Of a stretch of DNA of 64,000 bases, positions 48,001 through 54,000 are shown piece after piece. The stretch is from Escherichia coli (lineage in GTDB: Bacteria > Pseudomonadota > Gammaproteobacteria > Enterobacterales > Enterobacteriaceae): the NCBI RefSeq assembly GCF_041248615.1, contig NZ_CP158426.1; one strand, 5' to 3'. The first letter of the stretch is position 1. Every line of letters starts with the position of its first letter. Position numbers: made by a program.

Positions 48001-51000
48001 TCCGCGTCAGTCAGCGCATTGGCCCGCATGTTCTGGTACAGGTTGGTAACCAGCCAGTAGTGCGCGTTCGATTTCCACGGATAAGACTCTGCATCCGGAT
48101 ACAGGCCTCGCTTCCGGCAATACTCGTAAACCATATCAACCAGCTCGCTGACGTTTGGCAGTCCGGCGATAACGGATGCTTCTTCCCGGCACCATGCAAC
48201 AAACTGCCCGGGTGATGGCAGAAATGGTCGATTCTGCCGACGGGCTACGCGCATTCCTGCGTTAACCTGTTCCATTGTGGTGATCCCGTTTTCCCGGAAA
48301 GCCAGAACCCACTGGCGGCGGATTTCGTTCAGTTCGTTCTGGTCACGGTTAGCCAGACTCGCCGGGAAAGTTGCCAGTAACTGGCTGAACACACCGTTGA
48401 TGATCTGCGCTACCTGCTGTACCTGCGGCTTTTCGTCGTACTGTTCCGGCATGTTGTTGGCGATCCGACGCATCTGCTCACGGTCAAAATTAACCATCTG
48501 TGCGGCGATGTTTTTCATAAATCCACCCCGTAAATCCAGTCAGTGTTTGTCAGGTCGAGTTTTGGTTTGCAGGCTGTCACACCTGCCTGTTGCTTGTTAC
48601 GGTTGATTTCGAGCTGGGTCCACTTGTCGCGGAGTTTGGCCGGGCTCAGCACGTTACCGGACCAGAAGTTGTCCTGGCATGCCCAGCGGAACAGTACACA
48701 CATGTCGCGATGGTTACGTCCGTCACGTTCACGCATCAGGCGGATATCGTTAGCCCACCCTGCAAAATTCGGTTTTCTGGCTGATGGCGCGATGGTCTTC
48801 ACCATGTCAAACATCCATTCTGCGGCGGTCAGGTCTTCTGCTGTCCCCCACTTGCTGCCGCTCTGAATTGCAGCATCCGGTTTCACCACAGAAAGGTCGT
48901 TTTCTGGCTGGTCAGAGGATTCGCCAGAATTCTCTGACGAATAATCTTTTCTTTTTTCTTTTGTAATAGTGTCTTTTGTGTCCCCCTGTTTTGAGGGATA
49001 GCAATCCCCCAATTTGAGGGATGTTTTATCCCTCGTTTTAGGGGATTTTCCCTCGTTTTGAGGGATACACCATTCTGAGATGTTTTTATTTGGTCCAAAC
49101 ATGCCGCCTTGCTGCTTGATAATATTCATTCTGACGAGTTCTAACTTGGCTTCATTGCACCGTTTGACGGGTAACTTTGTAATCTCGCTAAGTTGAGAAT
49201 CGGTGATTCTGTCCATTGGTTTATTCCATCCATAGGTTTTACGCAGAATGGCAAGCAGCACTTTAAACTGTCGCTTGGTCAGATCTGCGCCTGAATAAGC
49301 CTCAAGCAGCATATTTGATAGTCTGGCGTAACCATCATCGAGATCTGCCACATTACGCTCCTGTTTGGCAAAGTTACCTCTGCAGAAGTTGAGTATTTTT
49401 GCTGTATTTGTCATAATGACTCCTGTGGATTGATCCAGTAATGACCTCAGAATTCCATCTGGATTTGTTCAGAACGCTCGGTTGCCGCCGGGCGTTTTTT
49501 ATTGGTGAGTCCATCAAGCGCATACTTAAAAGCCCTGCTAATCGGACTGATGTCTGATGCCATTCCGAAAGCACACAAGACCGAAGCAATAAATCTCCAG
49601 TCCGTTCTGCTTATCTTCGATTCATGACAGCCAATCATCTTTGCCAGACCGCGCTGGGTAATAGCTGACAGATTGATAAGTAAATCTGTTTCTGCGCGAT
49701 CAACGTCACGCTGTGATAGTTTGCTGTAACTTGTTCTTTCCATTTCTTAAGATTTCCAATAGTGAATAGTTAGTTGAAAGGTATGCGTGGAAACGCATAT
49801 GGCCTTAGTTGGTCAGATATCTTGGAACTCGCTTTTCAGCGACGTAGGACGAATGTCCGTTGTTACAAAGAGCGGATCCGCTTATTAAGCGGCTTTGTGT
49901 TCCGGCGGGAACACGTCATCAAGACTGACTTTTGCGCCTAACTTGTTTAGGCACGCAACAAGAGCACGGCATGTTTTAAGGTCTGGGAAGCGACGACCAG
50001 ATTCCCAATGTCCGATAGCTCCCTGTGTGCATCCAACTGCCTTAGCAAGTGTTGTTTGAGAGATATTCAGTGACTCTCGATATTTTCGTAGGTTGCTCAT
50101 ATGCCCTCCATAGTAAACACGAATAAAAAAATACAATATGTACTTTGCGAATACAAGTAAAAATACACATTGTGCATGGATGGTTCCAGTACAGAGCGTA
50201 ATAATAAGGACATGAAAATGAAATGGTATGAACTGGCTAGATCCAGAATGAAAGAGCTCGGCATAACTCAAGAGAAGTTAGCCGAAGAGCTAGGTATGAC
50301 GCAGGGTGGGATTGGACACTGGTTGCGCGGATCTCGTCATCCATCTCTTAGTGATATTGGTGTGGTGTTTAAATACCTTGGTATTGATAACATATCATTC
50401 AACCACGACGGGACATTTTCACCTGTTGGCGAATACTCATCGGCCCCAGTTAAAAAACAATATGAGTACCCTGTTTTTTCTCATGTTCAGGCTGGGATGT
50501 TCTCTCCAGAACTCAGAACCTTTACCAAAGGCGATGCGGAGAGATTGGTAAGCACAACCAAAAAAGCCAGTGACTCTGCATTCTGGCTTGAGGTTGAAGG
50601 TAACTCAATGACCGCACCAACAGGTTCCAAACCCAGCTTTCCTGACGGGATGTTAATTCTGGTTGACCCTGAGCAAGCTGTTGAGCCCGGCGATTTCTGC
50701 ATAGCCAGACTTGGTGGTGATGAATTTACCTTCAAGAAACTGATCAGGGATAGCGGTCAGGTGTTTCTACAGCCACTAAACCCACAATACCCAATGATCC
50801 CATGCAATGAGAGTTGTTCCGTTGTGGGGAAAGTTATCGCCAGCCAATGGCCTGAAGAGACGTTTGGGTGATGAAACCACTTTTATCTACAATTTACAGG
50901 GCGGTAAACATTGGCAAAAATAGATGATTATCAGCCAAGCCAAGTAGAAGTTGATAAAGTACTTTATTGTAAAAAAATAGTTAACTTTTCTGGCGTTAAA

Positions 51001-54000
51001 TGGAAACAGAAACCAAGTCGCTCTGATATGTGGCTACAAGCCCATATCATCCCCTTGGATGAGGATTGTATACCTATACAAGGGCTAAAGTTTGAACTGA
51101 AATGGAAACCAGATCAGGATTCAGAACCTGATGACCCGATTTCTTACCCTAAAATAAATATTATTGCTTTCTATCATAACAAGAGGGTTTTCGCGGTAGA
51201 TACCTATCACTTTGACAAACACACGAATAGTTACAAGGTCGATCATCCGAAGTACCAAGATATCATTTACGGTGCTCACTACCATGTATACTATGAAGAA
51301 GCTGGATACTATAGTGATAGAATAGCGTTTCCAATCGAAGATGACATAAACCCAGATGACCTGGTAGGGTATTGGAATTACTTCTGTAAACATCTGAACA
51401 TAACTTACTCTGGGAGAATACCTTTACCGCTTGAAGATGAGTCGGGGCAAATGGGGTTTGGAATATGATGTGCTCAACAGTGATCTCACAACTAGGTTTC
51501 GAATGCCATCCAATAGGCAAGACCTTGAGAATTATCAGTCCATTCACTTACTGTGATGATGGAGAGCATGTCGGTGCCTTTATCCGTGAAGTCAATGGTA
51601 GGTATTTAGTTAGTGACAGATGCGATGCCTTAATGAATATGGAGGCAAGAGGGATCTCGCTTACCAAAAAACGACTTGATGAGATACGACAATTACTGCT
51701 TAAAGAAGGCGCAGAACTCAATGCTCGAGGAGAAATCATTGCTTGGGCAACAGAAAAGGATGTCGGTGCGATTACATCGAACATAATTAGAGCTGGTATA
51801 CTCGCATCAACTTTGTCGTTAGACTGGTATCAGCCAGTTCAAGCTGAAAAGTTTGAAAGTATGGTTATTGATTATCTATATCACACAGAGCTTAGAGACG
51901 CACTTTCTCTTCGTGAAAACGTATATGGCTTGAGTGGACATCAAATTACCGTCCCTGTAACAATAAAAACCGACATACCTAAATACGTTTTTACATCAAG
52001 CGTGAAACACGGAGGAAGCTGGAATAGTGCTTACTCATTGCTTGGGAAACTAATTGATCTTAAAGCTTCAAGTGAGGAGTATAACAACAGATTTGTTGTT
52101 ATAGACAGCGAAGCAATTGGTGATCAAATGCAACAACTCTCCTTACTCTTCCATGAATCAAGCCAAGTTCTACCATTCTCCAAAAGAGAGACTTGGGTTA
52201 AGAGACTTGCAGCATAATACAACCCGGCCTCAGCGCCGGGTTTTCTTTGCCTCACGTTCGCCCACCTAAAAACACATAACCAATTATATTTATTGAAAAA
52301 TAAATAGATGCAACCCACTAAACCACGCAATTCTGATCTCTCCTTACATCGCCGAGGCAATACATCCACGCTAAAAAACAACACTATTAAATACAAAGCG
52401 TTATAAAAAACCACGCCAACTTACAACAAATTGTATTGATCTTGTAAAGTACATATCGTACTATTTAACCGTCAGCAGGACGCTGGAAGCCAAATGGAAC
52501 AGACTGGCAGGCTCTTTAAACAACGTCGACTCTCGACTACGTGGCTGAAAAGCCAGATCACCCAACCACATAAGCTGTGGGATGCAATGCCGAAGCAACC
52601 GTCTCAGGAGGAGCTTCGAGATTGCATCGCCAAAGTTTATTCGGGAGGAATCCATGTCCAGAAAAACAGAATTTAAAGGCACCGCAGCTTCTCGCCGTAG
52701 AGCTCGTCGCGCAAATCTGCAAAGTCAGGAGGCGATCAGCTCCGACAAGCTACACAGGCCAACCCCTTCACGAGTGGTCTTGCAATGCAAGCTCAAACCA
52801 GCAATGAGAGCAGAAGTGATAACTCTGACAACGTTGACCAGAAAATATGAAGGTTCAACTTGTCTTCCGAACGTAGCTCTTTACGCGGCAGGCTACCGGA
52901 AATCAAAACAACTGACGGCGAGATGATAAATTCATTTGCTAATTACTTGTTTTTGCCATGCTTATCCTGAGCGATAAGTTCATCCATAAGGCTGTCTGCC
53001 TTCCCGGCAAACCTAATGTAGCACTCATGTCTATAGCTTTCAGGGATAACGAAACGGTCGGTATCAGGATATCCAACAGCAGGAGGCCTTCGAACGAGGA
53101 GTCCTTTTTTGAGCAATGAAATTGATTCATGAGCGCCCTTTTCCGTTTGTAGCTGGTTATTAGCGGCTACAGCGAATGCCAAATACGCTCTTTCTCCAAG
53201 AGTTAACGAATCAAACAAATCTTGCACATATTTTTCTTCTTTAGATTTGCGCTTCTGAGCAGCGAATACCTCAATTCTTTCAGTCACAGCGTGATAAGCG
53301 GAATTAACAACGCCGTTAAGCACATAGCTAACGCAAAACAACAGGATGTAATACATCCAGTAATGAGGAAGGATTTCTGGACTATGCAGGTTTATCCATT
53401 CTTTTACGCTTACCGGCATAACAATAATCAATATGATCAGGATGATTAGCATATGAATCAACTGTTTAAGTGTCATTCCTTGCAGGAAAAAATGCATTAG
53501 TTCCTGCCACCATGAGTTGTTCATCGGCGTTTCTCTTTTGCTCTCTGTAGGGGTGAATAGAGTTTATCCGATTTCTCGTTGTAGGGGTACACGAGAACCA
53601 CCGAGCCTGATGTGGTTAAAAGACAGGCACAATCTTTACTACCGCAATCCACTATTTAAGGTGATATATGGAAGAAGAATTTGAAGAGTTCGAAGAGCAT
53701 CCTCAAGATGTGATGGAACAATACCAGGACTATCCGTATGACTACGACTATTGATACAAATCAATGGTGTGGACAATTCAAACGATGCAATGGATGCAAG
53801 CTGCAATCGGAATGCATGGTTAAGCCTGAAGAAATGTTTCCTGTAATGGAAGATGGGAAATATGTCGATAAATGGGCAATACGAACGACGGCAATGATTG
53901 CCAGAGAACTTGGTAAACAGAACAACAAAGCTGCCTGATAGTGGCCTTTATTTTTGGCATAAATAACAGAATAAACACTGCACTGTGTATTCATTCCAAC

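What the first reader, a model, noticed from the sequence alone, without database searches (positions are those of the whole stretch)
50911..52248. Unrecognised AT-rich two-gene operon at the rexAB position directly downstream of cI: candidate novel prophage defence system
Two translationally coupled ORFs (185 and 250 aa; ATGA overlap at 51465-51468) follow cI on the same strand and end at a terminator hairpin (52221-52248) just before nutL and N. That is the position lambda uses for rexA-rexB, expressed in the lysogen from pRM. The pair is clearly more AT-rich than cI and N, suggesting a swapped-in cassette. Neither protein resembles RexA, RexB or any family I can recognise, and neither has obvious TM segments or catalytic motifs. 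In lambdoid phages this slot usually holds superinfection-exclusion or abortive-infection cargo.
Basis: partly seen in the sequence, partly recalled or inferred. Interest (0 to 1): 0.9.

Follow-up and report, generated by a model that had tools for sequence, protein, structure and literature searches.

The report
Untested prophage defence-candidate gene pair
Two coupled genes of unknown function sit right behind the repressor gene of a lambda-like prophage, where such phages keep anti-phage cargo; several independent computational clues mark them as a defence candidate, but nobody has tested them.

Summary
Two translationally coupled genes, A (50911-51468, 185 aa, TTG start) and B (51465-52217, 250 aa), follow cI and end at a terminator (52221-52250). 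They lie upstream of OL/pL, nutL and N, and are AT-richer than their flanks.

The pair is a mobile cassette. The same pair follows other repressors, and the same cI/N flanks hold other cargo. In 80 viral contigs A and B always occur together, and in at least 74 they lie directly 3' of a repressor (29 repressor types).

B is DUF1828, with a YbjN/secretion-chaperone-like fold, plus a PD-(D/E)xK-like domain that lacks the canonical catalytic motif. A is a mostly-beta protein with no solved structural relative and a conserved Asp/His cluster.

It is not wholly unrecognised. Both proteins match PADLOC's untested candidate PDC-M24 remotely. These exact proteins are listed as "predicted novel defense gene" by DefensePredictor but were not screened. 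A 28%-identical pair lies between a type I restriction subunit, a HEPN-RES gene and AbiTii.

The best reading is a lysogen-expressed two-protein anti-phage (probably abortive-infection or toxin-antitoxin-like) module. The defence function is plausible but unproven, and the mechanism is inferred.

The parts
50126..50146 (.). OR operator-like sequence between cro and cI (region of pRM/pR)
   Evidence: It is 86% complementary to 52446-52466, and its core recurs at 52426-52437. The function is inferred from lambda-type immunity regions.
50176..50871 (+). cI repressor (HTH + S24 peptidase, LexA family)
   Evidence: ORF. Annotated as cI / LexA family protein in identical records. It carries the GNSM S24 motif (cluster 0).
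50874..52220 (+). Exchangeable cargo cassette (intergenic leader + gene A + gene B)
   Evidence: Homology to PhiR11_1 (same cI/N, other cargo) stops at 50873 and resumes at 52221. Stx1_121427 (other cI/N) shares window 50842-52344.
50911..51468 (+). Gene A: 185 aa, TTG start, soluble and acidic, mostly beta. Conserved K22, W31, R92, D97, H104, N106, G121, H123, H125, F158, P173 and a conserved C-terminal SGQ tail.
51465..52217 (+). Gene B: 250 aa. DUF1828 / YbjN-like N-domain (about 1-116) plus a PD-(D/E)xK-like C-domain (about 128-250).
51465..51468 (+). ATGA stop/start overlap (translational coupling)
   Evidence: The 4-nt overlap is conserved in 10 of 13 divergent lineages.
52221..52250 (+). 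Intrinsic terminator ending the cI-A-B transcript. It belongs to the phage backbone, not the cassette.
   Evidence: It is shared with PhiR11_1, which carries other cargo.
52426..52466 (.). OL operator-like sequences / pL region
   Evidence: Inverted-repeat matches to the OR sequence.
52510..52556 (+). nutL-like boxA (GGCTCTTTAA) and candidate boxB hairpins
   Evidence: Read from the sequence. The hairpin at 52525-52537 was also picked up. This is an inference.
52654..52926 (+). Antitermination protein N
   Evidence: ORF. Annotated as N in PhiR57_1.

Best explanation
The pair is a lysogen-expressed, two-protein anti-phage module carried as an exchangeable cassette in the cI-to-pL slot of lambdoid prophages. 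This is the slot lambda uses for rexAB and BTP1 uses for bstA.

Shown:
- A and B are co-oriented with cI, with no terminator between them, and are translationally coupled.
- They end at the immunity-region terminator and lie outside the pL transcript.
- The pair moves as a unit between immunity types.
- Both proteins are under purifying selection and always co-occur.

Inferred:
- They are transcribed from pRM (and pRE) together with the repressor, so they are present in every lysogen before an attack.
- A and B form a complex. A's conserved, predicted-disordered C-terminal tail is a candidate peptide for B's secretion-chaperone-like N-domain.
- A is the latent effector: a small beta protein with a conserved Asp/His/Asn cluster (D97, H104, N106, H123, H125, plus K22 and R92) that looks like a metal site. 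Its dose is kept low by a conserved non-ATG start codon.
- B is the regulator or sensor: a YbjN-like domain with invariant C3, C14, D32 and D51, fused to a PD-(D/E)xK-like domain that has lost the canonical catalytic motif and more probably binds nucleic acid or a ligand.
- A phage cue would release or activate the effector and abort the infection, in the manner of a toxin-antitoxin-type abortive-infection system.

My confidence is about 0.6 that the pair protects against at least some phages, and about 0.25 that the roles are divided as stated (A effector, B regulator).
For: Position and expression logic.

Cassette mobility.

Obligate pairing and conserved ATGA coupling over 19-100% identity.

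Slot conservation: of 80 IMG/VR loci, at least 74 have a repressor immediately upstream on the same strand. These repressors fall into 29 clusters at 70% identity. Three far more distant pairs also follow HTH/S24 repressors.

Literature: the BstA paper states that the cI-N region is a mosaic hotspot holding rexAB and bstA, which share the repressor promoter (PMC8585504).

Remote homology to PADLOC PDC-M24: B has E 4.7e-10 over its full length, and A has E 4.8e-4 over residues 104-163. Distant family members repeat this. PDC-M24 is one of 145 untested candidates found by being embedded in BREX, DISARM or type I RM systems (bioRxiv 10.1101/2024.01.29.577857).

DefensePredictor Tables S5 and S10 list WP_001062368.1 (A, log-odds 4.90 and 5.42) and WP_000968518.1 (B, 5.64; variant WP_000968517.1, 6.26) as predicted novel defense genes. 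The strict cutoff is 4. Validated systems in that study include ones scoring 4.9-6.4.

Defence-island context of a 28%-identical pair: HsdR, YgjP-like, HEPN-RES, the pair, then AbiTii.

Protein features. Weak start codon on A in 10 of 13 lineages. Both proteins are soluble.
Against: No experiment exists. The pair is absent from DefensePredictor's list of screened units (Table S6), and PDC-M24 is untested.

The PADLOC match of A is weak and partial. PADLOC itself would probably not call this locus.

DefensePredictor's overall validation rate was 45%, so a log-odds of 5-6 is far from proof.

Two of the supports are not independent of context, because DefensePredictor uses neighbouring genes.

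The division of roles is uncertain:
- A evolves faster than B in 47 of 47 comparisons, which would fit A as the phage-sensing part.
- B has the nuclease-type fold usual for effectors.
- PDC supplementary data show the B family also pairing with another partner family.
- The metal site of A is inferred from conservation only.
- A-B complex formation was not modelled.
Confidence: 0.6

Rival explanations
1. The function is the same (prophage defence) but the roles are reversed. B is the effector, a non-canonical PD-(D/E)xK-type nuclease regulated by its YbjN-like domain. A is the fast-evolving sensor or specificity subunit that recognises a phage component.
Against: No D...(D/E)xK is conserved at the beta2/beta3 positions in 40 diverse homologues. 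H159 is replaced by Ile or Arg in some members. A carries the richer set of catalytic-looking invariant residues.
Confidence: 0.25
2. The pair is a toxin-antitoxin or addiction module whose main role is to stabilise the prophage or mobile element, with no meaningful anti-phage activity.
For: It consists of two small, translationally coupled genes with a conserved dose-limiting start codon on the first. It occurs on mobile elements and next to IS1595 transposases. RES and AbiTii neighbours are also typical of TA-rich islands.
Against: A prophage in the chromosome gains little from post-segregational killing. The near-universal placement in the repressor operon, the slot of rexAB and bstA, fits lysogen-specific defence better. 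Neither protein resembles a known toxin or antitoxin family. Many TA systems also act in defence, so the two readings are not exclusive.
Confidence: 0.12
3. The pair is a non-defence accessory function: lysogenic-conversion cargo acting on host physiology or virulence, or a regulator of the prophage's own lysis-lysogeny switch through its link with the repressor.
For: Adjacency to repressor genes is nearly universal among the viral loci, which could mean functional coupling with the switch. The same prophage carries other host-directed morons, namely iss/bor and a porin. bstA was first linked to virulence phenotypes.
Against: Distant homologous pairs occur away from any repressor, in a restriction/Abi island and beside IS elements. 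The function therefore does not depend on a repressor. Both proteins are cytoplasmic and have no signal peptide or TM segment. Two defence predictors score them positive.
Confidence: 0.1

Closest known systems
Lambda RexA-RexB
   Same: Two genes sit directly 3' of cI on the same strand, inside the immunity region, and end at a terminator before OL/pL and N. They are expected to be expressed in the lysogen from the repressor promoters. The slot is a known mosaic hotspot (PMC8585504).
   Different: No sequence relationship was found: PADLOC, PHROGs, NCBIfam and Pfam gave no Rex match. RexB is a polytopic membrane protein (established knowledge), whereas A and B have no TM segments. The folds are unrelated.
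BstA (prophage BTP1 and relatives)
   Same: It is prophage-encoded, lies downstream of the cI repressor in many different prophages, has its own terminator, and shows tight association with the repressor locus. The pair shows the same pattern behind 29 repressor types.
   Different: BstA is a single protein with a cognate DNA anti-BstA element. Here two coupled proteins are obligatorily paired. There is no homology. No self-immunity element has been identified.
PADLOC candidate system PDC-M24 (CAS_00098, FAM_00129>>FAM_00065)
   Same: It has the same two-gene order: a small A, then a roughly 250-aa B. B matches the PDC-M24B profile end to end (E 4.7e-10). A matches PDC-M24A over its His-cluster region (E 4.8e-4). 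Distant members of this family give B matches down to E 1e-15 and sit in a type I RM/Abi island.
   Different: The matches are remote, and A is matched over only about a third of the profile. This clade is therefore a sister of PDC-M24 rather than a clear member. PDC-M24 was defined by being embedded in BREX, DISARM or type I RM systems, not by prophage location, and it is itself untested.
DefensePredictor 'predicted novel defense genes' WP_001062368.1 / WP_000968518.1
   Same: These are the very same proteins, with accessions confirmed in Nissle 1917 and ATCC 11775. Both score above the strict cutoff.
   Different: This is a machine-learning prediction only. The pair was not among the 118 units cloned and tested.
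PD-(D/E)xK nucleases (Can2/Card1, NucS, and type II enzymes PspGI, NgoMIV, Cfr10I)
   Different: The defining acidic residues and lysine on strands 2 and 3 are not conserved. There is no CARF or other known sensor domain.
YbjN family / type III secretion chaperones (DUF2170, SicP, Spa15, AmyR)
   Different: Sequence identity is 5-13%. B's domain has its own invariant set (C3, C14, D32, G33, D51) and is fused to a nuclease-like domain. There is no secretion-system context.

Membership tests
RexAB | Sequence homology to RexA and RexB | tested here: not met
   Profile scans with PADLOC, PHROGs, NCBIfam and Pfam returned no Rex family.
RexAB | Second protein is a polytopic membrane protein | tested here: not met
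   The maximum 19-residue hydropathy is 0.45 (A) and 1.19 (B), so neither has a TM-like segment.
RexAB | Located between cI and OL/pL, co-oriented with cI | tested here: met
PADLOC PDC-M24 | B protein matches a PDC-M24B profile | tested here: met
   PDLC04540: E 4.7e-10, 37.5 bits, residues 2-249 on profile positions 4-254 of 256. The match is remote. PADLOC's own calling thresholds were not available.
PADLOC PDC-M24 | A protein matches a PDC-M24A profile | tested here: inconclusive
   PDLC04536: E 4.8e-4, 18 bits, covering only residues 104-163. Similar weak hits were seen for three other divergent A proteins.
PADLOC PDC-M24 | Adjacent, same-strand A-then-B cassette | tested here: met
PADLOC PDC-M24 | Found embedded in or beside BREX, DISARM or type I RM | tested here: inconclusive
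   This is not the case in this window, which is a prophage. It is true for a 28%-identical pair in L101, flanked by HsdR and AbiTii.
PD-(D/E)xK nuclease superfamily (B, C-domain) | Restriction-endonuclease-like alpha-beta-beta-beta-alpha-beta fold | tested here: met
PD-(D/E)xK nuclease superfamily (B, C-domain) | Conserved catalytic D ... (D/E)xK on strands 2 and 3 | tested here: not met
   Among 40 diverse homologues there is no conserved acidic residue or lysine at those positions. The conserved residues are instead S157, G158, H159, K195, D198, R209 and D/E214. No structural superposition was possible.
Pfam DUF1828 (B, N-domain) | Match to PF08861 | tested here: met
   E 9.1e-8, residues 26-110. 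Homologues are pre-annotated as PF08861.
Pfam DUF6978 (A) | Match to PF22398 | tested here: inconclusive
   E 4.6e-4, covering only residues 104-164 on profile positions 81-133 of 133.
Type II toxin-antitoxin system | One protein is toxic and the other neutralises it by binding | not testable with these tools
   Only the organisation fits: coupled small genes and a weak start codon on the first.
Validated anti-phage defence system | Reduced plating or abortive infection on expression; loss on deletion | not testable with these tools
   No such test was found. The pair is absent from DefensePredictor's screened set. The Nissle 1917 study cloned cII, not this pair.
HipAD / DS-6B (DUF3037 + DUF1829 partner protein) | Sequence or profile similarity to DS-6B | tested here: not met
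   hhalign of the B alignment against DS-6B gave probability 0.1. DS-6B's own DUF1829 assignment is weak (0.78).

The most novel reading that the evidence does not exclude
A may be the first member of a previously undescribed fold of metal-dependent effector enzymes. It would be held latent by a partner that combines a secretion-chaperone-like peptide-binding domain with a catalytically dead nuclease fold. Together they would form a mechanistically new abortive-infection system that lambdoid and other temperate phages of Proteobacteria plug into their repressor operon. It could be the unidentified factor behind the complete resistance of E. coli Nissle 1917 to lambda and Stx phages.
Probability: 0.2. 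Interest if true: 0.8.

Novelty: new variant of a known kind. Interest (0 to 1): 0.55.

Why it matters
If it protects, this would be a new protein pair for prophage-encoded immunity: a fold with no solved relative, plus a chaperone-like / dead-nuclease partner. It would occupy the classic rexAB slot.

The pair is in about 4% of complete E. coli genomes (240 of 5,426). These include strains that matter in practice: the probiotic Nissle 1917, ABU 83972, the type strain ATCC 11775, strain Seattle 1946, APEC O18 and UTI89.

This bears on three things: phage-therapy host range, the safety argument that Nissle resists Stx-phage conversion, and how temperate phages trade immunity cargo. It is directly testable, because active phages carrying it (PhiR57_1, PhiR63_2, ev017, ev207) and near-isogenic phages with other cargo in the slot (PhiR11_1, 2G7b) already exist.

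Tried and rejected
- NCBIfam gave no match for either protein.
- PDB sequence searches with close-family and wide-family profiles gave nothing credible.
- The E 2.9e-12 hit of the A profile to the designed Kelch protein SAKe6 is an artefact. Six identical blades each match weakly (individual E about 33).
- A against AFDB50 returned only uncharacterised proteins from Gamma- and Betaproteobacteria.
- I tested a link between B and the validated HipAD partner DS-6B through DUF1829. hhalign gave probability 0.1, so I rejected it.
- I considered an HNH/His-Me finger reading of A's H-N-H-H pattern. I rejected it because the model has no helix after the hairpin.
- I looked for a catalytic PD-(D/E)xK motif in B and did not find it.
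- The alternative cargo in the same slot of PhiR11_1 has no PADLOC match, so it gives no extra support for the hotspot idea.
- The Nissle 1917 'phage repressor' phenotype turned out to come from cII, not from cI or this pair.
- Rfam found no RNA family in 49000-54000.
- The promoter scan found nothing above chance inside the cassette: 5 sites against 6.2 expected.
- Literature searches for PDC-M24, DUF1828 and DUF6978 gave no functional study. The paper describing the PhiR phage collection was not found in the held library.
- The genome-contig scan returned only 6 close loci because its patterns were too specific.

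
Full report
**1. What is there**

The window holds a lambda-like prophage with its immunity region in this order:
- P (47817-48518, - strand)
- O (48515-49414, - strand)
- cII (49447-49743, - strand)
- cro (about 49885-50100, - strand)
- cI (about 50176-50871, + strand)
- gene A (50911-51468, + strand)
- gene B (51465-52217, + strand)
- a terminator
- N (52654-52926, + strand)
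- sieB (52943-53524, - strand)

These come, with annotation of the 100%-identical phage PhiR57_1.

A starts with TTG. Its TGA stop overlaps B's ATG in ATGA at 51465-51468. The hairpin at 52221-52242 followed by TTTTCTTT folds at -17 kcal/mol with z = -3.3.

An operator-like sequence in the cro-cI interval (50126-50146) recurs at 52426-52437 and 52446-52466. OL/pL therefore lies to the right of the terminator. The pair is inside the immunity region and outside the pL transcript, and only 39 nt without a terminator separate it from cI.

GC content is 0.38 (A) and 0.41 (B), against 0.47 (cI), 0.50 (N) and 0.48 (window).

**2. Real genes that travel together**

Close homologues exist across Enterobacterales: 59-71% identity for A and 47-84% for B. 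Against five of them, non-synonymous differences are 0.10-0.25 per site while synonymous sites are saturated at 0.7-0.9.

A profile search of 1.84 billion representative proteins found only 20 A-family clusters. Every one whose context I read (7 of 7) is followed at once by a DUF1828 protein. All 6 genome loci and all 80 IMG/VR loci found with B carry A directly upstream. Three B homologues at 28% identity also have an A homologue upstream, one of them not called by the gene finder.

The 4-nt ATGA overlap is kept in 10 of 13 divergent lineages. A's start codon is GTG or TTG in 10 of those 13. A diverges faster than B in all 47 distinct pairs, by 12 points on average.

**3. An exchangeable cassette in the repressor operon**

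Phage PhiR11_1 has the same cI and N, but its homology to the window stops at 50873 and resumes at 52221. In between it has two unrelated ORFs. The terminator therefore belongs to the backbone.

Stx1a phage Stx1_121427 has an unrelated cI (234 aa) and N (127 aa) but shares window 50842-52344 at 98.7%.

Among the 80 viral loci, the gene immediately upstream on the same strand is a repressor in at least 74. These repressors fall into 29 clusters at 70% identity: 66 loci have HTH + S24 repressors and 8 have short HTH proteins. Pairs only 21-24% identical in A also follow HTH/S24 repressors.

The BstA study describes this cI-N interval as a mosaic hotspot that holds rexAB and bstA and shares the repressor promoter (PMC8585504).

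**4. The proteins**

In 40 diverse homologues the invariant residues are C3, C14, P26, D32, G33, D51, W121, F130, G155, S157, G158, P164 and D198. Near-invariant are H159, W186, Y190, K195, R209 and D/E214. The canonical D...(D/E)xK on strands 2 and 3 is absent, so the nuclease site is either lost or non-canonical.

Across 15 sequences at 21-48% identity, the invariant residues are K22, W31, R92, D97, N106, G121, H123, H125, F158 and P173, with H104 nearly so. A conserved SGQ-containing C-terminal tail is predicted disordered. The Asp/His cluster looks like a metal site, but this is an inference.

Both proteins are soluble and acidic.

**5. Evidence bearing on function**

- PADLOC: B matches the PDC-M24B profile end to end (E 4.7e-10), and A matches PDC-M24A over residues 104-163 (E 4.8e-4). 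Divergent family members repeat this pattern, with B down to 1e-15 and A near 1e-3.
- PDC-M24 (CAS_00098, 153 cassettes in RefSeq) is one of 145 untested candidates found because they were embedded in BREX, DISARM or type I RM loci.
- DefensePredictor (Science 2026, PMC13092281) lists exactly these proteins as "Predicted novel defense gene". The accessions were confirmed in Nissle 1917. WP_001062368.1 scores 4.90 and 5.42, WP_000968518.1 scores 5.64, and the variant WP_000968517.1 scores 6.26. The strict cutoff is 4.
- They are not in that study's table of screened units. Overall, 45% of screened units validated, including some scoring 4.9-6.4.
- A 28%-identical pair lies between HsdR, a YgjP-like gene and a HEPN-RES gene on one side and AbiTii on the other. 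The family is therefore not tied to repressors and keeps defence-type company.
- No match to any characterised non-defence family was found.

**6. Most likely mechanism**

The steps that are shown are these: the operon structure with cI, translational coupling, cassette mobility, obligate pairing, purifying selection, the folds and the conserved residues.

The inferred steps are as follows:
- The pair is expressed from pRM/pRE in the lysogen.
- A and B form a complex, with A's conserved tail as a candidate ligand for B's chaperone-like domain.
- One partner is a latent effector that a phage cue unleashes, giving abortive infection or growth arrest.

I favour A as the effector, for three reasons: its metal-type cluster, the dose-limiting start codon conserved across lineages, and the loss of the canonical catalytic motif in B. 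This is held weakly, at about 0.25.

The reverse assignment is about equally defensible. It is supported by B's fold, A's faster evolution, and the B family's use of a second partner family in the PDC data.

Overall I put about 0.6 on an anti-phage function. About 0.12 goes to a purely stabilising toxin-antitoxin role and about 0.1 to another accessory function.

**7. Comparison with known systems and novelty**

By position the pair is an analogue of rexAB and bstA, but it is homologous to neither. It fails the RexB membrane-protein feature.

It is a remote sister of the untested PADLOC candidate PDC-M24. It is also already flagged by DefensePredictor. It is therefore not an unrecognised locus, but it is unvalidated and has no proposed mechanism in anything I could search.

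I rate it a new variant of a known kind (prophage repressor-operon defence cargo), with moderate interest. The components are structurally unusual, and the pair sits in 240 of 5,426 complete E. coli genomes, including Nissle 1917, ABU 83972, ATCC 11775, Seattle 1946 and APEC O18, and in UTI89. Active phages with and without the cargo exist for a clean test.

**8. Limits**

- I could not run PADLOC's own system-calling logic.
- The paper describing the PhiR phage collection was not in the held library, so I cannot exclude that the pair was tested there.

Noticed in passing
window 49419-49789 (cII, 49447-49743, - strand): The 'phage repressor pr' (EcN_1294) of Bury et al. 2018 (PMC5987069) was reported to lower lambda and Stx phage plating about 200-fold when cloned in pUC19. 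Its qPCR and cloning primers map onto the cII gene of this prophage type, not cI. That paper also states that an unidentified factor of the same prophage must account for Nissle's full resistance.
   Followed up: yes
window 50911 and homologous loci L004-L018: Gene A uses a non-ATG start (TTG or GTG) in 10 of 13 divergent lineages, while gene B almost always starts with ATG. This suggests selection for a low A:B ratio.
   Followed up: partly
L003 3001-3030 (Stx1a phage Stx1_121427) versus window 50842-50871: Homology of the cassette in a phage with an unrelated cI begins 30 nt inside the 3' end of the window-type cI. A relic of the donor's cI therefore travelled with the cassette, which marks the recombination joint.
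   Followed up: partly
L002 2371-3751 (PhiR11_1) and L019 1774-2567 (Stx2a_WGPS8): Phages with the same cI and N carry other uncharacterised ORFs in the same slot (283 + 163 aa, and a 173-aa ORF). The PhiR11_1 pair has no PADLOC match. These are further untested candidates.
   Followed up: partly
L055-L058, L060 (IMG/VR): In five viral loci a 113-aa ORF (MAFNNIEIANIRR...) lies directly upstream of A-B. It has no HTH or S24 motif and may be an additional cargo gene between the repressor and the pair.
   Followed up: no
window 52943-53524 (- strand): A sieB (superinfection exclusion B) gene lies directly after N on the opposite strand. The immunity region therefore carries a second exclusion function next to the candidate pair.
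   Followed up: no
window 41445-41738 (+) and 43469-44611 (+): The prophage carries an iss/bor serum-survival lipoprotein gene and an OmpC/OmpD-like porin gene between the lysis genes and Q. These are two host-directed morons.
   Followed up: no
window 61193-63699: The prophage integrase (61193-62335) abuts icd (62449-63699, - strand). This is the icd-adjacent lambdoid prophage seen in the type strain ATCC 11775, whose annotated region is collinear with the window over the stretches compared. In Nissle 1917 an ISEc52 copy sits just beyond sieB.
   Followed up: partly
L101 2681-6702: A distant A-B pair lies in an island with HsdR, a YgjP-like metalloprotease, a HEPN_RES_NTD1-RES protein and AbiTii. 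L102 and L103 have an IS1595 transposase immediately downstream of B.
   Followed up: partly
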